24,926 nucleotides of DNA, taken from a virus. Taxonomy: Duplodnaviria; Caudoviricetes. This document shows, one piece after another, positions 2,858 through 15,543 of this stretch (position 1 is its first letter; every line of letters starts with the position of its first letter). Under the pieces are notes generated by a model. That model was not told the DNA's origin. It saw nothing but the letters and a program-made list of their open reading frames with translations, and did no database searches. Where the stretch lies: positions 1-24,926 of the IMG/VR virus record IMGVR_UViG_3300005932_000211, one strand, 5' to 3'. The translations under genes were made by a program, and so were the position numbers.

Positions 2858-3171
2858 TGCCGACCAGTTGGAGCCCACTATACCGGCATGGCCAGTACGG
2901 CTTCCAGTTCTGCACAGAAACGAAGCCCTACGTGTGCTTGTCCTGCAAGGGCACCGGGCTCTTGGGCGTCTGGCTATCACGTACCAGACTGGGGAACGTT
3001 TACGGCGAAGGCTATAGCATGTGCCCCGTCTGTCATGGGTACGGACTTTCAGCAGCTTGCACCGTCAAGTTTGTTTACTGGGACAAGGAGAAGCCGAAAA
3101 AGAAGCCTCTCTTTGACTCGTTCACGACATGGGGCGCCGATCCACTGGACCCCCCGATGTACCCCAACTGA
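2857..3171 (+). CDS. Small zinc-finger protein with two CxxCxGxG motifs (104 aa)
   Basis: CLSCKGTG and CPVCHGYG are DnaJ-type zinc-binding repeats. TAATG-coupled start. Confidence 0.75.
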   Translation: MPTSWSPLYRHGQYGFQFCTETKPYVCLSCKGTGLLGVWLSRTRLGNVYGEGYSMCPVCHGYGLSAACTVKFVYWDKEKPKKKPLFDSFTTWGADPLDPPMYPN

Positions 3172-3191
3172 GAGGAGGGAACCTGCGCCAA

Positions 3192-3208
3192 GCCGCCTTA
3201 ACGGCGGT
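3192..3208 (+). terminator. Possible weak intrinsic terminator hairpin
   Basis: GCCGCC-TTAAC-GGCGGT stem-loop 20 nt after the stop at 3171. The U-tract is poor (CATACTACTTT). Confidence 0.25.
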
Positions 3209-3238
3209 CATACTACTTTGGACGCTGGCGTCTGGGAC

Positions 3239-3268
3239 TTGACCCGCTGGGCGCCAGTGTTTTATGCT
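3239..3268 (+). promoter_or_regulatory. Putative sigma70-type promoter for terL
   Basis: TTGACC (3239-3244), 18-bp spacer, TATGCT (3263-3268). The ATG at 3276 follows 7 nt later with no Shine-Dalgarno sequence. This is the only sizeable intergenic gap in the window. Confidence 0.45.
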
Positions 3269-3275
3269 CCGCCCT

Positions 3276-5423
3276 ATGGCAATCGCGAGTGACCCCCTCT
3301 CCGAGTTGCACAACCCCGCCTTCCGCCGTGCCATCATCGCAGACCCGGTCCGCTACGCCTTCCTACTCCTCGGCTTCCAGTGCTGGCAACGCCAGGCGGA
3401 AGTCCTTGAAGCGATCTTCCACCATCGAAAAGTCGTCGTGCATACCGGCCACGCTGTCGGCAAAACGTACATGATCCCCGTACTCTTGATCCTGCACATG
3501 ATCGCCAGGCCAGACAGTCTGGGCGTCCTTACCGGCGCGAGTTGGTCGAACGTCGAACAGGTAATGAAGAACCTACGCTCGCGGTTGATGCAGTTACCGA
3601 AAGGCCTCAAGTTCGGTCAACCCACCAGGCACAAGTGGCAGCTCGGCCCAGAGTGGTACCTGGAAGCCTTCTCGCCAGACAAACCCGAGGGGATCGCCGG
3701 CAAGCATTCCTCAGGGCCCAGCGCCGGCACCATCCAGGTCGTAGACGAGGCCAGTGCCCTACTGCTCCCAATCTCTAAGGCGCTCATGGGCAATATGACC
3801 GGAGAGAACGATCGTTTGCTCTACATCGGAAACCCTCTGCACGCTGACGGGCCCTTCGTCGACGCAATCAATAACGTCGACGGTTCGTGGAAGGTTATCC
3901 ATATCTCGAGCCTCGATTCGCCCAACTTCCGCGACGACGGGATCTACGTACCGCACCTGGCGAGCCCGACCTGGCATGATGAAATGAAACGCGAGTACGA
4001 AGAGGGAAGCCCAGAGTATAAGGCCCGCGTGCTTGGCCTGGTACCTGACATCACCGACGATACTCTGATCCCCTCGTCGCTGGTCAGGGCGTGCGGCGAC
4101 GAGAAACGCCTCAAGCAATCTCTGAGATGGCAAGACGATGGACCTCTGATCGTGAGTTGCGATCCTGCGCGGAGTCCCTTCGGCGATCGCACTACGATGC
4201 TCGTGCGCGGCGAGACCCGCGTACATCTCTACGAACAACATCGCGGAAAAGACAGCGTGTGGATCGAGCAGCGCCTCGACGACATCCTCGACGACTACAC
4301 CGTCAAGGGGGAAGACCGGAGCCGCATTCGTGACGAGTACATCGACGGGCAGAACATGGGCGGGCCCCTCTGCGATCGCCGTATCCGCCGGCAGCAGATA
4401 GACCCGACCAGGCCCCACGTTCACCAGTGCATTGCCGGCCATCGAGCGCACGACATGAAACGCTTCGGCAACGAACGGGCCGAGATGTTCTCCGAGTTGA
4501 AAGACCTGCTCTCCACTATTGCCATCCCCCCGAGTATTCTCGCCCATGTCCTTGAGTGCTCCACCATTCGCTTCAGGCGTTCGATAACTCGCGATGTGAT
4601 GTATATGGAAGACAAGCAAGAGTACAAGAAGCGTACCGGCAAGTCGCCCGACGCTGCCGACGTCTTCGCTCTCTCCTGCGTCCGTATGGTAGGCAAGAAA
4701 GCCTTCCCGATGCTTGACGCCATCGTGCATCAAATGAACGCGAGGCCGATCGTCGACGAGAAAACCAACGAGATAAACTTCGCCAACCTGCCCGACGAGT
4801 GGAAACGCAAGGGCTCCCTGCACCGGGCCGTCTGGCTTTCGCGTGCAGGTGAAAGCGGCGCCGTCTGGGTGCATGTCGACGAGTCGGCTGTAACGAACAA
4901 CGAGTATGTCGCCGGCGGTTGCTGGACCGTGTACCGTGTGCTCAAGGCTTACGATGTGCCGGCCAGGATCTTCTACGAGGATGTCCTACAAAAGTCCGGA
5001 GACGAGCAGTACCGGGTCAATACGATCTCTTCTTATGACACTTCAGAGACGAACGAGACTTACGACATCACCCAGGACATTTGGGAACTCATGGACGTGA
5101 ACATGACTACGGTACCGGCCACCGACATCAAAGGCTCGAGAGGGCTCGAGGTACTCGACCGGCTGCTCCTAAGCGCCCTGGCCCATAATGTCCCAGACCA
5201 TCCCTATTGGGACGACCATGACCCAGGACTCTACCAGTCGCCCGAACAGATGCTCGTGTGGCCGGCCATCCTCGTCGACGACCTCAACCGCGCCAGGCGT
5301 GAAGAGATCACGTACACCGGAGAAGAAGATACCCCCGAAAAGGAAGGCCTCATCGGGGGCGGTTCTTCGTTGGTCAAGTGTCTTCGGATGCTTGCGGTTA
5401 GTGGCGTCTCCGCTTCAGTTTAG
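3276..5423 (+). CDS. terL: Terminase large subunit with extended C-terminus (alternative start 3264)
   Basis: Q motif (WQRQAEVL), Walker A HTGHAVGKT (3441-3467), Walker B VVDEA (3738-3752), coupling motif IGNP, YKARVLG, and RNase H-like nuclease motifs IVSCDPAR..GDRT and KSPDAADVFAL. Confidence 0.93.
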   Translation: MAIASDPLSELHNPAFRRAIIADPVRYAFLLLGFQCWQRQAEVLEAIFHHRKVVVHTGHAVGKTYMIPVLLILHMIARPDSLGVLTGASWSNVEQVMKNLRSRLMQLPKGLKFGQPTRHKWQLGPEWYLEAFSPDKPEGIAGKHSSGPSAGTIQVVDEASALLLPISKALMGNMTGENDRLLYIGNPLHADGPFVDAINNVDGSWKVIHISSLDSPNFRDDGIYVPHLASPTWHDEMKREYEEGSPEYKARVLGLVPDITDDTLIPSSLVRACGDEKRLKQSLRWQDDGPLIVSCDPARSPFGDRTTMLVRGETRVHLYEQHRGKDSVWIEQRLDDILDDYTVKGEDRSRIRDEYIDGQNMGGPLCDRRIRRQQIDPTRPHVHQCIAGHRAHDMKRFGNERAEMFSELKDLLSTIAIPPSILAHVLECSTIRFRRSITRDVMYMEDKQEYKKRTGKSPDAADVFALSCVRMVGKKAFPMLDAIVHQMNARPIVDEKTNEINFANLPDEWKRKGSLHRAVWLSRAGESGAVWVHVDESAVTNNEYVAGGCWTVYRVLKAYDVPARIFYEDVLQKSGDEQYRVNTISSYDTSETNETYDITQDIWELMDVNMTTVPATDIKGSRGLEVLDRLLLSALAHNVPDHPYWDDHDPGLYQSPEQMLVWPAILVDDLNRARREEITYTGEEDTPEKEGLIGGGSSLVKCLRMLAVSGVSASV

Positions 5424-8400
5424 CCCGCTGTGCCAGGCCAACGAGCCGCTTGGTTCTCGCTTTGAGTTGCCGGCGTTTGTCTTCCGGCCGCAGCGATCGA
5501 TTCTGCATGATCCTCTTGACCTGAGACCGTACCCCTGACATCGCCCTGGCGGTTGACTCAAGACCTTTCCGCCGGGCCAGGTAGAACTTGTCACGCCGCG
5601 CTATCATCGCAGCCTCGGAAGTGTTGCCGCGTGCGCGTAGAGTCTTCCAAGAGGTGAACGCTTTGCGTGCCTTGTCGAGATCCTCGTAGAACTCCGCGAC
5701 TGATTCGGCGCCGGAGGTTGGGTACCGGATAAGAAGAGACCGGATACCAGGCCAGTCTTCAAGGCCCTTTGCTGGGCCAGGGACGGCGTCTACGAGCCCC
5801 GACGACTTGAGGCCTACATCTATGGCCCCCTGCGCGTAACGGCCCAGGCCACCCGTCCAGCCGCCTACAACCAGGTCTATGTGACGGGGCGAGACGTTGA
5901 GCCAGCCACCGATGATCTTCGAGACCTCACTCGTCCACGGGCCGTACTGGTATTTCTTATAGAGATGTGTCTCCGAGTCGGGAATGACTTTCCTGTGCCG
6001 CCAGTCTTTGTTGGCGTAGATGTGCAGCGCCGGCCAGAAGAAAGTCGGCATAGGTACCGGGACATCGACCCGCGAGATCGTGGCGAGCACGCGCTTACCC
6101 AGCCTGGCGTCCTCGCCCTCATAGTGCGAGATGATCCCGTCGACGATGCGCTCAGGCAACGAGCCGAAAATGGTCCCAACTTCAAACGGCTTCGGGATGC
6201 GCCAGATGTGATTCTCAGTAAACACGATCCAGAAGAGATCTTTTTGCCACTGGGGTATTTCCTTCCAGCGCGGATCTTTGCGGTTGTGCAGCATCAAGGC
6301 CACCGAGGCCAAGGCGAGAAGCGACAGACGAGCGGACGTCGTCCAGGGGCGCTCTTGAAACGCGGTACCGAGACGAGAGTAGCCACCGATACGCGCCGCG
6401 AAGAACGCACTGATCTGATTTACCCCCCAGGCGTAGGAGCCCATCTTCGCGAAGTCCTGAGTGACGCGCCGGCTGGCCCATGCGGCCCTGGCCATCGCTT
6501 CTTTCTCAGGCGTGCCCTTCTTGATCTCGCTCTCGTACACCCTGCCGAACTCACCTATGCGCGTGACGTTCTCCATCGTCTCGCTAAGGATACGCAGTAC
6601 CTCGATTGGGTTCTTGATCGTGCCGGCGATTCGCTTGAAGCCGCCCTGCTTGGCAAAACTGCTCGCCTTCTTCCGGAGACTCTTGCGGTCCATCGAGACA
6701 AACGCAGCGTGGGCGCCGCCGGCCAAGATCCACTTGCGAACCATCTCGCCGCCGTCCTTGCCCTCCCAAATGTGCTTATCCTGCATCATGTAGTACATGC
6801 CCTTGACGATGTTGGCGCCAGGGATCGGGGTTGTGAACGTGTACATGAGCGATTGGACGGCGTCACGCCAGGGGTTACGGACGATCGAGAAATCGGGGTT
6901 GAGCGTAGCGCCCGCCCTGAGCCATACCGCCGGCGCACGTAGCACCTTGAAAACGGCGTGGAGATCCTGACGCGACATGCCGGTAAGCACGTTCCAGATC
7001 TCACGCGACACCAGGTAGTCCTTGCGTTCGCCATCGCGGAAAATGGTGACGACGTCCTCGCGGGGCATTTGATGTCGCGGAATGAAAAACGTGACGACCT
7101 CTTCTGCCGCCTGGCCGTTGACCTTCATGCCGAGTTTCTCTAACTCATGCACCAGGTTCTTCACCGGCTGCGTCACCGGGCCCATCTGTACGGGTGTCTC
7201 TTCTACCTTAGGGGTCTTGCCGGCGTTGTCGGCGATCATGCCGGCCACTCTCTGCTTCTCGGCCATCGAGACAAACGTGTAGACGTTCTTGATGATCGAC
7301 TCCATCGGGTCGACGATCTGGGTACGCCCGCCTTTCATCTTCGAGACCGGCGAGAACAAGTCGACCAGGCGTTCGCTTTTAAGCAGCGGGTTCTTGCCAG
7401 GACGGTGCGCCTCTTCGATGATGCGGTAGAAGGGAACATAGTAGGGGTTCAGTACGCGCATCACCTGGGCCGCGCCGGGGCTCAGGCCTCCGGAGTCGAC
7501 CAGGTATTGCAAGAGCTGGTCTTGGAACTTATGCATCTTCTCGGCAGCGACTACGATGTCGGGCATGTTCTTCTTCATCCACCGAATCGCCTTGTCCGCG
7601 TCGGCGGGGTCGATGCCAGTTTCCAGCGATCGCTGCTCGGACAAGTGCTTCGCCCTCAAGGCCACCATGTACGTCGAGATGTACGCCATGCGGCCATCGT
7701 CGGCGATCGCAGAGACGATCTCGTTCATGCCTGGCCCGATAACCTTCGAGATGTCGCCGAACTCCACCATGCCATGCTCGAGCATGTGGTACGAGATGCC
7801 CATGCGGCCATTGAAGAGCCGCGCCGTCCGATACTCCGACTCTGTGACGTCCTCGTTCTTGACGTACTTGCGGCCCTTGATCTCGCGCTCCATACGCAAG
7901 AGCGGGTGCAGTTGGTCTACCCAAGTGTCGATGAACTTCTCGTAAAGGTCGCGAGTGTCGAGGACCCCGCGCTTGCCGCCAGTGTGATCGATTCGACCCG
8001 CCACCGGCTGCAAGTCCGGAACGTCCTCGGGTGACGCGAGTTGGTACTTGGGCGCCCGCTCCTTGAGGATCTTCTCGCGTGCAGCGTCGGGGATCTCCAT
8101 GTACCAGACATCCTGCGCCGGCCTGAAAGTAAGTTTGAAGTCCTTGATAGCAGCCTGTGGCGTCTCGTGGGAGCCCCAGAACTTCGAGCCCATCGCGTGC
8201 GGCGCCTCCTCTGGCAAGCGCCCTACGTTGTCCTGGTTCGTCTTTATCGACCAACTGGTGAAGCGTTCGGAGACGTCATTCTTGACAACGTCAAGGAGCC
8301 TTAGGTCCTCGCTCTCCCCCCAGTCCTCTACTGAGCGGTCCACCGGGCCGAAGCCTACGGCTCTTTGCTCTGCCCTCAGGCCGAAACGCTTGAAAATCTT

Positions 8401-11400
8401 GTTCGCGATGTCGACGACCATCTTGTCGTAGAAGGCACGCATAGGCTTGCCGCCCATCCGCAAACCCTCCGCGTCTATCGCGCCCCTGCTGCCGTTCTCG
8501 TCCGTGAGGATCTGTACCGCGACGTTCGTACCGACCTGTTCGGCCAACTTGCTCTCTTTGATGTTGTCGAGGAGCTGTATGCTGCCAGACCAGGGGTGAA
8601 TAGTGAGATCGTATGCGCGTTCTTTCCCTTCTACCTCATCGTGCAATTCCCATTCGATCTCCTTCACATGTATCTCGAGGCCATAGAGAAGATTTTGCTG
8701 AAGTCCGGTTGACCAGGCCAGGTCTTTTCCCTCTTTCACGGCGACCATCAGCGCACGCCGCAGAGTTAGGGCGACCCAGTCTTCCGTCTTCGGGTACGGG
8801 CCAACTGGGGTTGTTTCGAGGTACTCGGCGCGTTCTTCAGCCAGGTGGTCGAACTCTCGGAGCAGCCCCAGCTTCTCCCTGGCGTTGTCAAGTGAGCCCT
8901 TCAGTGTTTTTCGCCAATATGTCGCCCTCGCTTCTCCAAGGAGATCTTTCGCGTAATCGTAGAGCTCCTGCGTTGGCACTCTCTCGCTACGCGTCCAGTC
9001 CTCGAAGCCCGAGGACGCCGGCGCCATTTCGTACTCCTCGAAGAGCGGGCCCCAGTCGGCGCTCAGTTCGCTCAGGTGTATGCCGGCCAAGTCCGACCAC
9101 TGGCTCTTGTTCTCGCTTAGGAACCGCATGAACTTGTCGAAGGTGGCGCTGTCCTTTGTCGCGCCGTGGTGCAAGGCACTCTGAAACTTGCGGAGATGAT
9201 CCCTCGCCCGAGAGACGAGCCGGCCCGTCTGTTCACGCATACGTGAACTCGTCGCAAACATCCCATCGGCGTGAGCGAACGCCTCGCGGATCTTTTGCAT
9301 CCTGCGTTTGATCTCTTTAAGGCGCCCTTGCCCTACGAGCGTCTGGTACCCGCCCTTGCGCCCGCTTCCGTGCCAGTCCGACTGTATCTCCTCAAGGAAG
9401 AGCGCACCTCGAGGCGCTAAGCGTTTTACCGGCTGTCGGTCAGTCACGCGGAAATGCGAGACTACGTTCTCTTCGGCCCAGTGCGCCCCCACGAAGGGCT
9501 TCGCCAATGCCGTGAAGTGGTCGAGGTTTCCGAAACGCGCTGCGATCTCTGGGGCGTCCCTCGCGATCATCTCTACCAGGTTCCCCATCGTCCAGACGCG
9601 GCGAGCCGTAAGCTCCTCTGTCTCTAACGATCGGTGCGACGGGCCCAGGAGATCGGGGCGTTCCTTGCGGATCGTGTTCAAGAGAGAAGCACGGAAATAC
9701 TCTTCCTTGTCCCATTGCTCGGTCGGCCACATCATCAGGAACTCGCGGTAGCCTACCGCCAGGGGGGCTTCATCCTGCCCTGTTTGCGTCCAGCTGTAAT
9801 ACTTGGTCTTGGGGTCGGCGTTGTACCTCGTATCGTCGAAGCGATGATAGGCTCGCGTAGCGTGCGCCATTAGCCTGTGCTCTATCTCAATCGGGAGCCC
9901 ATACTCCGAGGCAACGTCGTGAATGGGTTGACGTTCGTCGATCATGTCTGCGATGCTTCTCGCCCAGACGTCGCGGTCTTCGCTTCTGACATGGTCGGGG
10001 TGTTCACTCAGCCAGTGAGTGATGGCGCCGACCGTCTGCTGGCGCGAGTCTTCATAGAGCATATAGGCAGTTCTGGCCCCTGGCTCTTGCGGGCTTGGAT
10101 CGCCGAAAACCTTCTCTTGTAACGGGATGTTGTAGCGGTCAAGGAAAGCCCTGATCTCTTCAGTCTCTACCGCGCCCTTCTGACTTCTTAACCAACTCTC
10201 GAGCCCTGACCAGTAGACTTCCGCTCGTTTCACGCCCTGGGTCTTGAGAAGTTTGTTGATCCAGTCCTGCCCCCTGGCCTTCATCGGCCTGAGATTGTTC
10301 ACGGCCTGGTTGAGCGTCGAGTAGAAGCCCATCTCGTCGACTTCGCCCTCGGCCAGTTGGAACCGTGGGGTGTGGCCCTCGAGATAGTAGCGTTGGATGT
10401 CCGCGGTGATCTTGCGCGGGTTGGTCGTCTTCAGGTCGTAGCTCCGCGACATGTGCGAGTGCGTATCGGAGTACAAGTCGATCGAGAAACGGCTCTCGCT
10501 GAAAGGCGTGTCCTCGAAGAGCCGGCGGATGGTCGCGAGCTGCGGCGCCGTAGGCCTGCCGTAGAGCATCACATGGGAGCCTTCAGGCATCCAGCGTATG
10601 ACGCCTAACTTGCCCACCAGGCGAAGCATCCTGTCGCGGTACCCCGTGGCGCCGTCTACCTCGCCGCGCTTGTCTTGTAAAGACTTCGGGATGATCCGCG
10701 CAAACTCCGAATGGTCGCGAGTTCTCTGGCCATCCCCGCCTGGTTCACTCCCATCGAGCATCCGGCCATTCGGCAAGATCCCGAAGGCTCTCGTCGGCAG
10801 ACCCGTAGTACCAAAGATCCGCTTTGCGTTCGCGATGGCCTGGTCCTTCTCCGTCTTCGTGAAGAGGGGCTTGTCCGTGATAAGCCGAGCGACGATCGCC
10901 AGGGCCTCGGCCTGGTCGCCTGAGAGCCTCCCGCTCCTCTCAGTCAGTCTTTCGATTATCTCCTTGGTGTCTTTCCAGCGACGGCGATCGTAACCCAAAG
11001 CCTTGAGTCGGTTGTTCAGTGCTATCCAGTGGTCGGGTGTTAATGCGCTCAGTTCGACCTCGCCCAACCTGTTGCCGCTATCGTCGTGGAGACTGACCAG
11101 TTGGAAGCGTATATCGGGGGACGTTTCGGCGAAGCGTTCCGAGAGGGGAATGACTTCTCCCTGCTCGTCGCGTGTGACGGGTTCCGCCGACTTGATCTGC
11201 TCGGGGCTCCAAACTAAGATCTCATCCGCGAATTGCTCGATCGTTTCGCCTGGCTTCGTGGGCTCGTTCACGATCACCAGGGAGTCGCGTCCGTTGGCTT
11301 GCGCAATGCCGGCGAGCCAGGGGTCGGTGATCCCGACGTACTGGTAGACCTCGGGGTTCTTCATTCGCAAGTAGGCGCCATAAACTCTTCCGCCGCCGCC

Positions 11401-14400
11401 CTCGCGCTTCTTTCTTCTGTAGTCTATCCATCGATCGTAATACTCTTTCAACTCCTTGTATTTTGGCGTCCCGAAGCCAAGGTCGAGCGACTCGTGCATG
11501 GGTCGGGTCTCAAAGCGTTTTGCTGCTGCTTCGTATTCCTCATAGAGCCGGTCGTCTTCTTCGTCCTTCTGCCTGACGACGGCTTCTTCTCGGTAATAGT
11601 CGGCTTTATTTTGGGACGTCACGAAATAGGTGCCGGCGCCCCAATCGCTCGTCTGCACCGTGCCCGCCTTGCTCGCGTCAAACTCCGTGATGTCTGCGGC
11701 ACCCGAGCCGTGGAAGACTGGCCCAACCGTGTACCCTGCTCGCCTGGCTGCATCCTCAACCATTCTTTCCGCCGCCTGCATGTCTCCACTCTCCACGGCG
11801 GAGAGGTAAGCCTTATCGTCTTCTGCTAACTGAAACTTTGTCTTAGGCTCGCCCTGGCGTTTCTCGATCGCGCCGAAGATATCGGTTTGCCCTGGCTCTT
11901 CTTCTGGCCAGGCTTCCTCGATCGCGGGGAACATCTCGGATTGCTTCAAGACATCACGCGGTTTGATCTTCGCCAGGTTGGGGTTGACCAGCTCATCCTT
12001 GAACAGATCCGTCATGGCCTCGGCGCGTTTGTCCTTGTCGGCTTCGGCGTGGGATAGACGGATAGCCTTCTCGATCGCCGACTCTTCGCCGGCCAGTTGA
12101 AACTCGTCGTTGTAGTCGGTGATAGGCCCTTCCTCAACCGCCGCGTTCAACCCCTTCCACTCCCTGATCTTCCCGCCGATGTATAGTTGGGCCTGGTCGT
12201 CGGGGTATCCGTGCTTTTCCGCGTACTCCGTCGCTTCTGCGCGGACTTGGGCCTCGGGTTTCTTCGCTTCCTCGACGAGATACCGATGGCGGTCCATCTT
12301 CTCCTTGAAGGAAATGTCCTGCTCCTCTTTGGTGTACCCGTACAGTTCACCCTCGCCGTCTTCGTAGATCTCGCGCCGCCAAGCCTCCTCGGTCATGCGG
12401 ATATGCTGCTCTGTCGTAGGCTCGTGGTCCGCGAAACGCTCCTTGTGCCCGCCGTGGTCCTCACCGGCCCGGCCCACTTTCACCCTGAGCTGTTCTTCGC
12501 CGCCGCTCTCAAAAGCGGTCCTCAGGATCTTAACGGCCATTTCTGTCGACTCTTGCTGATCTAAGCCGTTGAACAAGGGGCCTACCAGTTCGTCATTGCG
12601 TAGGAAGTCGGCCAGTTCATCCGCCGTCATGCCGCGCCCGTCGCTGTGAAACCCATGCAACCAGTTCACGCTGGAAGGAACCTGGCGCCCGTCCTTCGTG
12701 GTGGTCATTACGAAGAGATCGCCGTACTCGCCAGAGTCCCAGCGGCCTGTATTCTTATTCTCGGTGACCTTGAGGCCTCCCTGCTTCCTGATCCTGACCA
12801 GCGTTGTCGTTTTTCGGGGCTCCGTGGAGACCTTGCGGCCCTGTTTCGGGTGGACCTTGACCTCCTTCTCGCCCTTTTTCGGCTTCTTGCGGGTCTTAGC
12901 GGGGCTCCCCTTGCCCGATTCCTGCTCCCCAGGCGCGTTCTCCGGGCCTTTCTCCGTCTCCTGGGGTACAGATGCCTCTGAAGGGGCGTTCGTCGATTCT
13001 GCCGCGTTCCTGGTGGCGTTACCGCCCTTCCTGACCCTTCCTGCCGCCATGTCTCCCAGCAATCTACGCGCTTCCTTGCCCGTGGTGAGTCCCAGGCCGT
13101 CCGCAAGCGCCTGGAAAGTGGCCGGGATCTTGGACAGCAAAGGGTGTTCTATCTGGTCGTTGAGGAGCTGGCCAAGGGCCTCGGCGCGTTTCTCACCGTT
13201 CCCGAACTCTTTCCGCAATTCTCCGATCTGGCCTTCGGTCAACACGATCCGTTCGGCTACGTGGTAGACCTCATGGCCGATCGTGCGCTTGTTCGAGTTG
13301 CCGGCCAGGAGAATGATGTGGTCTGCTGTTATGAGGGTACCGTCTTTCGTGGTGATCTTGCCGGCAAGGGTGACGCCCCTGGCGGTGAGCCCAAGGGTCG
13401 GGATAATGCCAGCCTTGAGCGCATCGTTGCCGACGTCGTCTATAGATTTCGTCTCCAGGGGCTTTATGACGTCGACGGTCGCGATGATAAGAGTCTCGCC
13501 GCCTGGTGTCAGTACCTCGACGGTGCTTTCCGTCTCCTTGGTGATCTTCCCGCCCAGGACGCGCTCAACCATCTTCTTCGTGTGCGTCCGTTCCTTCTTG
13601 TCCATCTCGCGGACCAGGCTTGTCGTCTGGCCTGAAGAGGGCTTCGTGCCGGCGTGTGCAGCCTCCAGCGCCGCCCTACGATGTACCAGGGGCTCCATCT
13701 GCTGCTCCAGGAGTGCCCGCTCTTCCGTGGTGGGCGCTGCGGCGACGTTCTTCTGCAGCCTGGCGATCGCATTGTTCACGCGACTGAGCTGCTTGTCGTA
13801 CTCTTGGACCGTGCTCTCTTCGGTGAGGAAGGCCCCGGAGACGCCGCCCATCGCCTCGGCCTCGACGCTGGCTTCTTGCGCGATGAGAAGAGTCTCTGCC
13901 GCGTCCTTGCCGATGAGAGGTTGCTTGGTGAAGTCTCGCGTGCCTTCAGGGTCGATCAGGTTCTCGATGAGTACGCGCAGTCGACCGTTTCTCTTCTGCT
14001 TCCGCCAGAGCCTTTCCGCCTGGCCTTTCTTGTAGTCTTCGCCAAACTGCGCGGTGAGTACCCGTACCCCATTGCCCCAGTCGTCTACCGCTTTAGAAAC
14101 CTTGTGGGGTTCCGCCCGCTTGCGGTGTTTCTTCTTCCACTCCGCAGCCTTGCGTTGCTTCTTCTCGAAACCCTCTTCGTACTCCTGTTCGCCCTGGTTG
14201 GCCTCGGCTTCCTCGGCTTGCCTGGCTTGTCTCTCCTCGGCTTCCCAAGGTGGTTCGCCGGGGCGCTGCTCTCTTTCAGTCTCTTGAGATGGTACCCCTG
14301 GCTTGCCAGTCGGTCGTACTTCTTCGCCACCAACCCCCTCGCCTTCCTGAGACTGTGGCATTGCAGGACCAGGTTGCAGATCGTCACGTATGCGAGCTCC

Positions 14401-15543
14401 ACTGTCGGCCTCCTCTTCCCGCGCCTGGCGTGCCGTCTCTGCTATCTCCCCAGGCTCGGCCAGGCCTTCTTCCTGTTTGATCTTCTCCATCGCTTCTTCG
14501 ATGGTCGCCGGCTGTCCCATCTTGTGCAGTCGCTCGGCGTCCTGCGCCGTGTATTTGTCGTATGCTGCACGCGCCGCGTCGGCATCGTCGGGGTTCTCCT
14601 GGCGGGCTTGATCCATCCGCACCTGGCCATAAGATGCGGCTAAGGTACCGTAGAACAAACCAGCGAAGCCGCCACCCAAGGCAGCGTCTCCCCAGTTAGC
14701 CCAGATGTCGCGCTGTGCGTCGTAGAGCATCCTTGCCGTAGCGTCGTGGCCTACCGTCTGGATCTGCTCTTGTAGCGACTCCGCCAACATCGACTTGAGG
14801 CCGGCGATCGGGACCGTCATCCCTTTCTTAAGCCCCCGGACCCAGTTGAACACACCAGGCAGACCGACCGACTCGGTGAGGCCGCCCAAGATGTCCAGGC
14901 CCAAGCCCTTGAGAAGCTTGGCGTCGTCGTCGGTGTACTCCATTGCGTCGGCCAGGCCATGCCCGCCTTCTTGCAAGGCGCCCAGTCCGCCGGCCATCGC
15001 CTGCACGCCCCGCTGCACGCCCTTGACCCCAAGGCCCGCGCCTTTCATTACCACGCCACCCGCTGCGAGCTGCGCCAGGAAGGAAGCACCGGAGCCCAGG
15101 TAGCCGGCGCCGGTTTCCTGAAACCAACCAGCCACGCCCTCGGTCGGCGTTGCGTCTCTCTTGTACTTTTGGTCGAGGTGTCCCTGTAGAGCCTTCGTGT
15201 AGCCCTTGACGTTCTCGGAGCCGCCAACCAGGAAGTCCTTTATGTCCAACGCGCCCGTCAGGGTCGAAGTAACTCCTGTGTCGAAACTACGCCTGAAGGA
15301 ATTGTAGGAACCTTTGACGAAGCCCATTTCTTCTTCGGGCGGGGCCTCAGACTCAGGAGGAGAATAGCCAGACGGGAGCTCCGGAGCGTTTTGCCCGATC
15401 CCGTTCTCCATCGCAAGATCATAGAGCGAGCCGAGGGTATCAAGATTGAAGCCGCCATCGTCGACGGCGGGCTCTTCCTCTGCCGGCCTTTCGAGATAAA
15501 AGCCGGCCTCTGCCATGCGTTCTTCGATCGACTGAGTCGCCAT
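5398..15543 (-). CDS. Giant large polyvalent protein / internal virion (ejection) protein, 3381 aa
   Basis: 10.1-kb ORF. The ATG at 15543 overlaps the upstream stop (TGATG). It has a Gly/Ala-rich hydrophobic N-terminus, an HEVYH motif, an ART-like domain, an EEIQSDWH domain and an LPD38-like C-terminus. It is the last gene of the virion block, the position of the largest ejection protein in podoviruses. Confidence 0.9.
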   Translation of the reverse strand: MATQSIEERMAEAGFYLERPAEEEPAVDDGGFNLDTLGSLYDLAMENGIGQNAPELPSGYSPPESEAPPEEEMGFVKGSYNSFRRSFDTGVTSTLTGALDIKDFLVGGSENVKGYTKALQGHLDQKYKRDATPTEGVAGWFQETGAGYLGSGASFLAQLAAGGVVMKGAGLGVKGVQRGVQAMAGGLGALQEGGHGLADAMEYTDDDAKLLKGLGLDILGGLTESVGLPGVFNWVRGLKKGMTVPIAGLKSMLAESLQEQIQTVGHDATARMLYDAQRDIWANWGDAALGGGFAGLFYGTLAASYGQVRMDQARQENPDDADAARAAYDKYTAQDAERLHKMGQPATIEEAMEKIKQEEGLAEPGEIAETARQAREEEADSGARIRDDLQPGPAMPQSQEGEGVGGEEVRPTGKPGVPSQETEREQRPGEPPWEAEERQARQAEEAEANQGEQEYEEGFEKKQRKAAEWKKKHRKRAEPHKVSKAVDDWGNGVRVLTAQFGEDYKKGQAERLWRKQKRNGRLRVLIENLIDPEGTRDFTKQPLIGKDAAETLLIAQEASVEAEAMGGVSGAFLTEESTVQEYDKQLSRVNNAIARLQKNVAAAPTTEERALLEQQMEPLVHRRAALEAAHAGTKPSSGQTTSLVREMDKKERTHTKKMVERVLGGKITKETESTVEVLTPGGETLIIATVDVIKPLETKSIDDVGNDALKAGIIPTLGLTARGVTLAGKITTKDGTLITADHIILLAGNSNKRTIGHEVYHVAERIVLTEGQIGELRKEFGNGEKRAEALGQLLNDQIEHPLLSKIPATFQALADGLGLTTGKEARRLLGDMAAGRVRKGGNATRNAAESTNAPSEASVPQETEKGPENAPGEQESGKGSPAKTRKKPKKGEKEVKVHPKQGRKVSTEPRKTTTLVRIRKQGGLKVTENKNTGRWDSGEYGDLFVMTTTKDGRQVPSSVNWLHGFHSDGRGMTADELADFLRNDELVGPLFNGLDQQESTEMAVKILRTAFESGGEEQLRVKVGRAGEDHGGHKERFADHEPTTEQHIRMTEEAWRREIYEDGEGELYGYTKEEQDISFKEKMDRHRYLVEEAKKPEAQVRAEATEYAEKHGYPDDQAQLYIGGKIREWKGLNAAVEEGPITDYNDEFQLAGEESAIEKAIRLSHAEADKDKRAEAMTDLFKDELVNPNLAKIKPRDVLKQSEMFPAIEEAWPEEEPGQTDIFGAIEKRQGEPKTKFQLAEDDKAYLSAVESGDMQAAERMVEDAARRAGYTVGPVFHGSGAADITEFDASKAGTVQTSDWGAGTYFVTSQNKADYYREEAVVRQKDEEDDRLYEEYEAAAKRFETRPMHESLDLGFGTPKYKELKEYYDRWIDYRRKKREGGGGRVYGAYLRMKNPEVYQYVGITDPWLAGIAQANGRDSLVIVNEPTKPGETIEQFADEILVWSPEQIKSAEPVTRDEQGEVIPLSERFAETSPDIRFQLVSLHDDSGNRLGEVELSALTPDHWIALNNRLKALGYDRRRWKDTKEIIERLTERSGRLSGDQAEALAIVARLITDKPLFTKTEKDQAIANAKRIFGTTGLPTRAFGILPNGRMLDGSEPGGDGQRTRDHSEFARIIPKSLQDKRGEVDGATGYRDRMLRLVGKLGVIRWMPEGSHVMLYGRPTAPQLATIRRLFEDTPFSESRFSIDLYSDTHSHMSRSYDLKTTNPRKITADIQRYYLEGHTPRFQLAEGEVDEMGFYSTLNQAVNNLRPMKARGQDWINKLLKTQGVKRAEVYWSGLESWLRSQKGAVETEEIRAFLDRYNIPLQEKVFGDPSPQEPGARTAYMLYEDSRQQTVGAITHWLSEHPDHVRSEDRDVWARSIADMIDERQPIHDVASEYGLPIEIEHRLMAHATRAYHRFDDTRYNADPKTKYYSWTQTGQDEAPLAVGYREFLMMWPTEQWDKEEYFRASLLNTIRKERPDLLGPSHRSLETEELTARRVWTMGNLVEMIARDAPEIAARFGNLDHFTALAKPFVGAHWAEENVVSHFRVTDRQPVKRLAPRGALFLEEIQSDWHGSGRKGGYQTLVGQGRLKEIKRRMQKIREAFAHADGMFATSSRMREQTGRLVSRARDHLRKFQSALHHGATKDSATFDKFMRFLSENKSQWSDLAGIHLSELSADWGPLFEEYEMAPASSGFEDWTRSERVPTQELYDYAKDLLGEARATYWRKTLKGSLDNAREKLGLLREFDHLAEERAEYLETTPVGPYPKTEDWVALTLRRALMVAVKEGKDLAWSTGLQQNLLYGLEIHVKEIEWELHDEVEGKERAYDLTIHPWSGSIQLLDNIKESKLAEQVGTNVAVQILTDENGSRGAIDAEGLRMGGKPMRAFYDKMVVDIANKIFKRFGLRAEQRAVGFGPVDRSVEDWGESEDLRLLDVVKNDVSERFTSWSIKTNQDNVGRLPEEAPHAMGSKFWGSHETPQAAIKDFKLTFRPAQDVWYMEIPDAAREKILKERAPKYQLASPEDVPDLQPVAGRIDHTGGKRGVLDTRDLYEKFIDTWVDQLHPLLRMEREIKGRKYVKNEDVTESEYRTARLFNGRMGISYHMLEHGMVEFGDISKVIGPGMNEIVSAIADDGRMAYISTYMVALRAKHLSEQRSLETGIDPADADKAIRWMKKNMPDIVVAAEKMHKFQDQLLQYLVDSGGLSPGAAQVMRVLNPYYVPFYRIIEEAHRPGKNPLLKSERLVDLFSPVSKMKGGRTQIVDPMESIIKNVYTFVSMAEKQRVAGMIADNAGKTPKVEETPVQMGPVTQPVKNLVHELEKLGMKVNGQAAEEVVTFFIPRHQMPREDVVTIFRDGERKDYLVSREIWNVLTGMSRQDLHAVFKVLRAPAVWLRAGATLNPDFSIVRNPWRDAVQSLMYTFTTPIPGANIVKGMYYMMQDKHIWEGKDGGEMVRKWILAGGAHAAFVSMDRKSLRKKASSFAKQGGFKRIAGTIKNPIEVLRILSETMENVTRIGEFGRVYESEIKKGTPEKEAMARAAWASRRVTQDFAKMGSYAWGVNQISAFFAARIGGYSRLGTAFQERPWTTSARLSLLALASVALMLHNRKDPRWKEIPQWQKDLFWIVFTENHIWRIPKPFEVGTIFGSLPERIVDGIISHYEGEDARLGKRVLATISRVDVPVPMPTFFWPALHIYANKDWRHRKVIPDSETHLYKKYQYGPWTSEVSKIIGGWLNVSPRHIDLVVGGWTGGLGRYAQGAIDVGLKSSGLVDAVPGPAKGLEDWPGIRSLLIRYPTSGAESVAEFYEDLDKARKAFTSWKTLRARGNTSEAAMIARRDKFYLARRKGLESTARAMSGVRSQVKRIMQNRSLRPEDKRRQLKARTKRLVGLAQRAKLKRRRH
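5740..6290 (-). other. LPD38-like domain of the giant protein (approximate bounds)
   Basis: DPRWKEIPQWQKDLFWIV...RIPKPFEVGTIFGSLPER...ANKDW...IP...SP.HID..V.GW.GGLG matches the remembered LPD38 signature. Confidence 0.8.
11110..11823 (-). other. ADP-ribosyltransferase domain (ART-PolyVal-like) of the giant protein
   Basis: VFHGS...EFD...GTYF...A..Y, VYGAYLRMKNP, G.DSLVI, DEILVWSPEQIKSA motifs. His at 11710-11712, Tyr at 11626-11628 and Glu at 11221-11223. Confidence 0.85.
13150..13400 (-). other. Zincin-like metallopeptidase motif (HExxH) in the giant protein (approximate bounds)
   Basis: IILLAGNSNKRTIGHEVYHVAER (HEVYH at 13261-13275) is followed about 20 aa later by GEKRAEAL, a candidate third zinc ligand. 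Confidence 0.65.

What the first reader, a model, noticed from the sequence alone, without database searches (positions are those of the whole stretch)
8035..12105. Five [EKR][FY]QL[AV] motifs punctuate the giant protein at domain boundaries: candidate processed effector polyprotein
Seen directly: EFQLA (12105-12091), KFQLA (11838-11824), RFQLV (11109-11095), RFQLA (10365-10351) and KYQLA (8049-8035), at about aa 1147, 1236, 1479, 1727 and 2499. I found no other copy in 3381 aa. Four are followed within a few residues by acidic tracts (GEES, EDD, EGE, PED). They bracket discrete modules: an 84-aa motif-rich segment, the ART domain (238 aa), a DHxE domain (243 aa), the EEIQSDWH domain (767 aa) and the LPD38-containing C-terminus. 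Polyvalent proteins with metallopeptidase, ART and LPD domains are known. The inference is that this pentapeptide is a protein-specific cleavage or handling signal, possibly read by the upstream HEVYH peptidase, releasing separate effectors after injection. Three copies also share DNA (CCAGTTG[GA]AA on +), so they might double as module-swap junctions.
Basis: partly seen in the sequence, partly recalled or inferred. Interest (0 to 1): 0.88.

Follow-up and report, generated by a model that had tools for sequence, protein, structure and literature searches.

The report
Module-junction code in giant phage protein
A 3,381-residue phage protein that is likely packed into the virus head carries the same short tag five times, at four joints that relatives confirm as module boundaries; relatives mark such joints with their own version of the tag, which likely makes it a "cut here" signal, though no cut has been shown.

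Summary
Observation confirmed: five [EKR][FY]QL[AV] at the stated places, far beyond chance. The protein is a phage polyvalent protein (ART-PolyVal, LPD38, HExxH zincin-like domain). The motif is this protein's version of a family-wide junction signal. Unrelated modules end in the aromatic in relatives (ART 154 of 177, EEIQSDWH 95 of 96). The next two residues form a per-protein 'dialect' (FSL, FMP, FQP, FSK, here FQL) repeated along each protein (330 copies against 139 expected). Close ART modules differ in dialect and match their host protein. A processing site is the best reading (0.5). Iyer 2017 proposed peptidase processing; I found no published site motif. This scan noted similar linker tags on other genomes (e1-6265024, e1-6096207, e1-9562192, e1-5347233).

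The parts
5398..15543 (-). Giant polyvalent protein gene, 3381 aa from ATG; last gene of the structural operon, after tail-type genes and two small ORFs (257 and 457 aa)
   Evidence: capsid and adaptor genes upstream in G001
13033..13500 (-). Zincin-like HExxH domain (HEVYH at 13275-13261; a Glu about 25 aa downstream is the likely third ligand); candidate reader of the motif
   Evidence: relatives L003/L004, P0277, P0065; iterates into 62 polyvalent HExxH windows; weak PDB zincin hits; fold attempt failed
12091..12105 (-). Junction motif 1, EFQLA (F1149)
   Evidence: low-confidence coil in model; no aligned relative
11839..12090 (-). 84-aa segment between motifs 1 and 2, with TDLF, QSEMF and QTDIF words (resemble sliding-clamp-binding words; label recalled)
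   Evidence: mostly low confidence in model; no Pfam hit
11824..11838 (-). Junction motif 2, KFQLA (F1238), start of the ART module
   Evidence: first turn of predicted helix 98-113, outside the ART core
11110..11823 (-). ART-PolyVal module (Pfam 1277-1455)
   Evidence: 32 bits, cut-off 31.2; fold matches PARP/ART domains, best Z 7.9, rmsd 3.2, 110 aligned
11095..11109 (-). Junction motif 3, RFQLV (F1481), end of the ART module (IPLSxRF..DIR[FY])
10366..11094 (-). DHxE module of unknown function (about 80 unmatched residues, then a core at 1565-1728 found in relatives)
   Evidence: no Pfam or Atlas hit
10351..10365 (-). Junction motif 4, RFQLA (F1729), end of DHxE module and start of EEIQSDWH module
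8050..10350 (-). EEIQSDWH module of unknown function, common in polyvalent proteins
   Evidence: 86 relatives; no Pfam hit; Atlas only unnamed clusters below 0.9
8035..8049 (-). Junction motif 5, KYQLA (Y2501), end of the EEIQSDWH module (GQP[LM]F in relatives)
5398..8034 (-). C-terminal block with LPD38 (Pfam 3091-3266, window 5749-6276)

Best explanation
The five [FY]QL words are this protein's version of a family-wide tag that marks the joints between exchangeable modules of a phage polyvalent protein, and they are likely proteolytic processing sites at which the chain, predicted to be packed in the head and ejected into the host, would be cut into separate pieces. Shown: the tag, its place at module ends, its per-protein dialect, and that modules match their host protein's dialect. 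Inferred: packaging and ejection (gene context; LPD38 giants of phi24B and JC1 are virion proteins). Predicted: cutting next to the aromatic residue gives pieces of about 89, 243 (ART), 248 (DHxE) and 772 aa (EEIQSDWH) plus the 1148-aa N-terminal and 882-aa LPD38 parts. The protein's own HEVYH zincin is the most likely cutter (about 0.3 overall, 0.6 if cleavage is real), but nothing here singles it out from the rest of the backbone. New modules probably enter by recombination at the junction DNA, which helps spread one dialect, while selection keeps the aromatic residue.
For: Unrelated modules end in the same aromatic: ART 154 of 177 ends (chance 0.28), EEIQSDWH 95 of 96 (chance 0.33); in loci picked by a DNA pattern that left that position free, 63 of 73 anchors are followed by F or Y. 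Dialect is shared between ART end and EEIQSDWH end (18 kin-collapsed proteins: +1 0.67 vs 0.23, +2 0.56 vs 0.11, p 0.0002) and between ART start and end (36 of 68 vs 3.9). Own dialect recurs 330 times in 150 dereplicated proteins against 139 expected and 139+-14 with swapped dialects. Of 18 ART pairs at 50-75% identity 16 differ in dialect; own dialect recurs 82 times, the partner's 23. Homology breakpoints cluster at the tag (106 of 231 copies vs 60.5, max 79). Codons are not uniform: no excess at the aromatic (16 of 29 vs 17.0), serine uses both codon families in 8 of 15 proteins. Motifs lie outside the ART core. Copies are enriched only downstream of the first HExxH (186 vs 58; upstream 23 vs 28). 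Iyer 2017 (PMC5512222, sections 8 and 34 read) proposes such processing and cites processed P1 DdrB.
Against: No cleavage data. Dialect follows the HExxH domain better than the ART module but no better than the C-terminal (15 vs 13 of 67) or N-terminal backbone (9 vs 6 of 44); no tree signal among 21 proteins of the largest HExxH group (12 changes vs 11.7). Eleven proteins without HExxH or HExxxH still repeat their dialect (20 vs 11.4), and HTVC028P gp34 ends its module in QPLFE with no HExxH. The 119 LPD38 relatives show no enrichment (136 vs 162.5) though 81 have HExxH. Junction pairs share codons at +1 more than expected (15 of 23 vs 7.8; 67 of 166 vs 47.6), so DNA copying can explain part of the concerted pattern. 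Motif 2 is modelled as the first turn of a helix, not open coil. The nearest tag is about 390 aa from HEVYH and none flanks the peptidase here. N4 vRNAP, with HExxH, is described as full-length (PMC13434306 passages; PMC5512222).
Confidence: 0.5

Rival explanations
1. Recombination footprint plus structural cap: modules are inserted by recombination at a 9-12 nt junction that is copied, so +1/+2 agree along a gene; the aromatic is kept because it packs back on each module. No cutting.
For: Excess identical codons at +1 (15 of 23 vs 7.8); 7 of 15 proteins use one serine codon family where 2.8 are expected; dialect is labile among close relatives with no tree signal; residues before the aromatic are module-specific (DIR, GQP[LM]); tag persists without HExxH.
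Against: Three unrelated modules would each need a terminal aromatic cap at the same junction; no codon excess at the aromatic, only a weak one at +2 (15 of 31 vs 10.6); both serine families mix within 8 of 15 proteins; module starts also carry the host dialect; this gene's copies are not significantly alike in DNA.
Confidence: 0.22
2. Non-cutting handling signal: the tag is a short linear motif bound by a backbone domain or another virion protein to stow, unfold, thread or refold the modules one by one during ejection.
For: Protein-level conservation and backbone-linked dialect fit binding as well as cutting; some carriers have altered zincin motifs (P0238, P0239, P0166, P0228); N4 vRNAP is modelled as uncut beads on a string (PMC13434306 passages).
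Against: No binding partner identified; LPD38 relatives are ejected-type giants yet lack enrichment; tags are confined to the cassette downstream of the HExxH domain.
Confidence: 0.2
3. Cut site read in trans by another phage or host protease rather than by the embedded zincin (a sub-case of the best reading, counted within its 0.5).
For: Tag without HExxH in cis; G001 encodes a Peptidase_C92 protein.
Against: No prohead protease among 41 ORFs scanned; [FY]QL is not repeated in other recognisable virion genes of G001; no conserved Glu as in T4 or phiKZ head-protease sites (recalled; logos).
Confidence: 0.2
4. Chance repeats.
For: About 139 of the 330 own-dialect matches in relatives are expected by chance; motif 1 has no aligned relative.
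Confidence: 0.01

Closest known systems
Polyvalent proteins of phages with zincin-like MPTase (Iyer et al. 2017, PMC5512222)
   Same: Giant late-gene product with ART-PolyVal, LPD38 and an HExxH domain; processing by the MPTase is proposed there by analogy with RNA-virus polyproteins.
   Different: In the passages and sections I read no site motif is given ('linker' 0 hits in the main text; FTP supplements not seen). The junction tag, its dialects and their adoption by incoming modules are additions.
E. coli phage phi24B gp47 (bioRxiv 10.64898/2026.04.10.717836) and Burkholderia phage JC1 gp69 (PMC9144972)
   Same: LPD38-bearing giants detected in virions; gp47 proposed as ejection protein (passages read).
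   Different: Different payloads; no processing or junction motif in the passages seen; their sequences were not tested here.
Coliphage N4 virion RNA polymerase gp50 (PMC13434306)
   Same: About 3,500-aa ejected protein with an HExxH domain and flexible linkers.
   Different: Studied as a full-length chain; carries a polymerase, not a module cassette. A counter-example to automatic self-processing.
Phage P1 DdrB (as described in PMC5512222)
   Same: MPTase-bearing virion protein reported as proteolytically processed.
   Different: One cut before packaging; site and enzyme not given in what I read.
RNA-virus polyproteins
   Same: Recurrent short site at domain joints with an embedded protease (general knowledge; analogy drawn in PMC5512222 section 34).
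   Different: No shared domains; cleavage there is proven, here it is not.

Membership tests
Phage polyvalent protein (Iyer 2017) | Large polypeptide joining biochemically disparate domains, including family-specific LPD/ART domains | tested here: met
   3381 aa; PF18857 E 6e-39, PF18760 E 2.5e-7 above cut-off; modules in different orders in relatives
Phage polyvalent protein (Iyer 2017) | Encoded among late/virion genes of a terminase-portal phage | tested here: met
   TerL, TerS, SU10-type capsid and adaptor in G001
Phage polyvalent protein (Iyer 2017) | Packaged in the virion and delivered to the host | not testable with these tools
   Inferred from context and from phi24B gp47 / JC1 gp69
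Zincin-like MPTase | HExxH after a strand, related by profile to polyvalent-protein MPTases | tested here: met
   HEVYH; 14 of 16 weak PDB hits (E 0.02-0.9) of profile A5 carry peptidase, ArdC, Wss1 or MJ1213 names
Zincin-like MPTase | Third ligand Glu on a following helix and three-stranded zincin fold | tested here: inconclusive
   Glu conserved in a 3-sequence alignment only; single-sequence model pLDDT 39
Zincin-like MPTase | Proteolytic activity | not testable with these tools
   No assay possible
Self-processing polyprotein | Recurrent short site at domain boundaries | tested here: met
Self-processing polyprotein | Cleavage at the site by the embedded protease | not testable with these tools
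Self-processing polyprotein | Site variant tied to the embedded protease more than to the rest of the backbone (a prediction, not strictly defining) | tested here: not met
   (15 vs 13 of 67; 9 vs 6 of 44)
Prohead-protease maturation sites (T4 gp21, phiKZ gp175; consensus recalled) | Conserved Glu at the cut site | tested here: not met
   Logos have no conserved Glu
Prohead-protease maturation sites (T4 gp21, phiKZ gp175; consensus recalled) | Prohead protease gene in the genome | tested here: inconclusive
   None recognised among 41 ORFs scanned; many ORFs have no family
ART-PolyVal | Profile match and ART fold | tested here: met
   PARP-type fold Z 7.9, rmsd 3.2, 110 aligned; activity untested

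The most novel reading that the evidence does not exclude
Phage polyvalent proteins are true self-processing polyproteins with a fast-evolving private cleavage code: each giant's zincin reads its own [FY]-x-x dialect, and every effector module picked up from another phage is re-tagged to that dialect, so that the tag alone predicts the released effectors across thousands of uncultured phages.
Probability: 0.3. Interest if true: 0.88.

Novelty: new variant of a known kind. Interest (0 to 1): 0.64.

Why it matters
Processing of polyvalent proteins by their zincin was proposed in 2017 without sites. A conserved junction tag gives exact positions and predicted fragments, so the idea can be tested with one construct. 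Whether or not it is cut, the tag is a practical ruler for splitting these 2,000-6,000-residue proteins into modules, including unnamed ones such as the DHxE and EEIQSDWH modules, which are candidates for early host-takeover or counter-defence effectors.

Tried and rejected
Unbiased 4-mer enrichment in the 119 LPD38 relatives found no comparable tag, and the start of the LPD38 block is not tagged there (11 of 108 vs 0.06): motif 5 is explained as the end of the EEIQSDWH module. A first profile learned on ART ends alone was too DIR-specific and a wide window missed the EEIQSDWH end. Single-sequence fold of the HExxH domain failed (pLDDT 39) and was not searched. A mixed ART+DHxE alignment mis-stacked the DHxE rows and was dropped, so motifs 4 and 5 were not modelled. 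The whole-library profile search, the Foldseek 'pdb' search and the complex prediction (zincin + Zn + motif-1 peptide) were not available, so remote relatives of the zincin and docking of the tag remain open. No close relative of this phage was found beyond its own longer contigs. No cultured phage matched the ART+DHxE region or a typical ART module; weak EEIQSDWH matches in 2 and 5 records; of the four proteins examined from three of them none showed a clear repeated tag. No PDB sequence match for the whole protein; Atlas gave nothing usable. Trees gave no dialect signal. The A4 pre-ejectosome paper does not mention an ART or cleavage in the terms searched.
Full report
Setting. The window is a 24.9-kb virus record that lies within a 48.4-kb record, G001, rated 99% complete. 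G001 has small and large terminase, an SU10-type capsid protein and adaptor, a lysozyme and a Peptidase_C92 gene; a short-tailed phage is inferred. The giant gene (5398-15543, minus strand, 3381 aa) closes the structural operon after tail-type genes and two small ORFs, where ejection proteins usually lie (general knowledge). Pfam finds ART-PolyVal and LPD38.

Observation.

Relatives. Three searches gave 323 other proteins of 1,860-5,919 aa (best 120 of 257, best 120 of 223, all 87). A DNA scan for the ART end, leaving the aromatic position free, gave 128 loci of about 480 held, 80 with long flanks. Alignments to the window protein start and stop near motifs 2-4. The ART module ends IPLSxRF-5-DIR[FY] and the EEIQSDWH module ends GQP[LM]F; the window's YMEIPDAAREKILKERAPKYQL is the latter ending. 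With profiles that omit the motif columns, 154 of 177 ART ends, 95 of 96 EEIQSDWH ends and 14 of 14 DHxE ends carry the aromatic (chance 0.28, 0.33, 0.65). Those profiles were seeded with ends that had the aromatic, so the DNA-picked set is the cleaner check: 63 of 73. In an all-against-all comparison of 99 full-length proteins, leaving out ART junctions, 106 of 231 tag copies sit at clusters of alignment ends or starts against 60.5 for other F/Y (max 79 in 200 draws). Motif 1 has no aligned relative.

Dialects. The two residues after the aromatic differ among proteins (SL, SR, SV, MP, QP, SK, RK, QL and others) but agree within one. ART end against EEIQSDWH end: 27 proteins, 18 after collapsing kin, both residues equal in 0.42 against 0.07. 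ART start against end: 97 of 150 proteins had a recognisable start, 68 an aromatic before it, 36 of 68 the same pair against 3.9. Own-dialect copies: 330 against 139 in 150 proteins dereplicated from 173. Of 18 pairs of ART modules at 50-75% identity only 2 share a dialect; in the other 16 the protein's own dialect recurs 82 times elsewhere, the partner's 23. So the tag changes faster than the modules, yet in step along a protein.

Protein or DNA. Both. No codon excess at the aromatic (16 of 29 vs 17.0), a clear one at +1 (15 of 23 vs 7.8) and a weak one at +2 (15 of 31 vs 10.6) among 43 junction pairs in 27 genes; the wider set of 28 genes agrees (+1 67 of 166 vs 47.6; +2 78 of 205 vs 71.3). 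Serine at +1 mixes its two codon families in 8 of 15 genes, 12.2 expected if independent. Junction DNA therefore shares some ancestry, as expected if modules enter by recombination there, while the residues are kept through synonymous change. In the window itself three CAA-CTG copies have P 0.18.

Structure. A model of aa 1140-1510 from 31 sequences (mean pLDDT 73) puts motif 1 in low-confidence coil, motif 2 at the first turn of the module's first helix, and motif 3 in coil where confidence falls from 87 to 57 (the alignment also ends there). The core matching PARP-type ART domains spans model residues 109-317 (best Z 7.9), so all three tags lie outside it. Motifs 4 and 5 were not modelled.

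HEVYH belongs to a domain related to HExxH domains of other polyvalent giants with weak zincin hits in the PDB; its fold could not be modelled. Tags are enriched only downstream of the first HExxH in 84 proteins, and in P0277 the related domain is bracketed by tags. Dialect is shared with the nearest HExxH neighbour more often than with the nearest ART neighbour (29 vs 15 of 120; 15 vs 5 of 71). But the N- and C-terminal backbone predict it about as well, a tree of 21 proteins shows no signal, 11 proteins without HExxH or HExxxH still repeat their tag (20 vs 11.4) while 4 with only HExxxH do not (3 vs 6.1), several of these 15 keep a zincin-like region with an altered motif, and 119 LPD38 relatives, 81 with HExxH, have no tag excess. 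The zincin remains the simplest candidate, not a demonstrated one.

Mechanism. Most likely (0.5) the chain is packed whole, ejected, and cut beside each aromatic to free the ART, DHxE and EEIQSDWH modules and an 89-aa piece. The bond is unknown: a cut before the aromatic would leave N-terminal F or Y (a ClpS degron, recalled), a cut after it mostly S, Q, M or A. Rivals: copied junction plus structural cap (0.22) and non-cutting handling signal (0.2).

Print. PMC5512222: abstract, passages and sections 8 and 34 read; proposes MPTase processing, notes N4 vRNAP, ArdC and TraC1 as unprocessed; its FTP supplements were not seen and may show the motif in alignments. PMC13434306, PMC9503650, PMC9144972, bioRxiv 10.64898/2026.04.10.717836: passages only. 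PMC12002296: abstract and passages. Ten searches listed no paper on a junction motif in these proteins; subscription papers are not covered. Earlier notes of this scan describe similar tags on other genomes; they are unchecked and are not counted as support.

Verdict. Real feature, known protein class, apparently undescribed junction code; cleavage plausible and directly testable. New variant of a known kind, interest 0.64.

Noticed in passing
window 11839-12090 (-): The 84-aa piece between motifs 1 and 2 holds three similar words (TDLF, QSEMF, QTDIF) that resemble sliding-clamp-binding motifs (label recalled); it could be a released clamp-binding peptide.
   Followed up: partly
P0285, P0289, P0295, P0304; L155:6204-9068 (HTVC028P gp34): Where the EEIQSDWH module is nearly last, the junction aromatic is followed by a short tail of about 20-35 aa, often glycine-rich and hydrophobic; possibly a removable targeting tail.
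   Followed up: no
P0238, P0239, P0228, P0166: Zincin-like domains with HExxE or EExxH in place of HExxH; may be metal-binding variants or dead enzymes.
   Followed up: partly
L010, L026, L085, L034: ART ends where the aromatic is replaced by Arg but Met follows (RRMA, RRMP), so the +1/+2 residues can outlast the aromatic.
   Followed up: no
P0132: ART ends run into FDPSQPRDxRGRW-type repeats instead of the usual tag; a different linker system.
   Followed up: no
PDB 9k3a chain B: A cyanophage A4 pre-ejectosome chain matches the ART model at Z 7.0, rmsd 4.8, 134 aligned; 'ribosyltransferase' does not occur in the paper's main text. May be an unnoticed ART in an ejection protein, or a chance match.
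   Followed up: partly
L153:7368-8072 (-) and L153:4094-4654 (+): G001 encodes a Peptidase_C92 protein, and an HExxH word lies in a frame overlapping an opposite-strand ORF (may be a shadow frame).
   Followed up: no
window 3264-5423 (+): The large terminase gene converges on the giant gene and overlaps it by 26 bases, far from the small terminase gene at L153:10944-11639.
   Followed up: no
window 10366-11094 and 8050-10350 (-): The DHxE and EEIQSDWH modules recur in many polyvalent giants but have no Pfam family; both have conserved His/acidic residues that suggest enzymes.
   Followed up: partly
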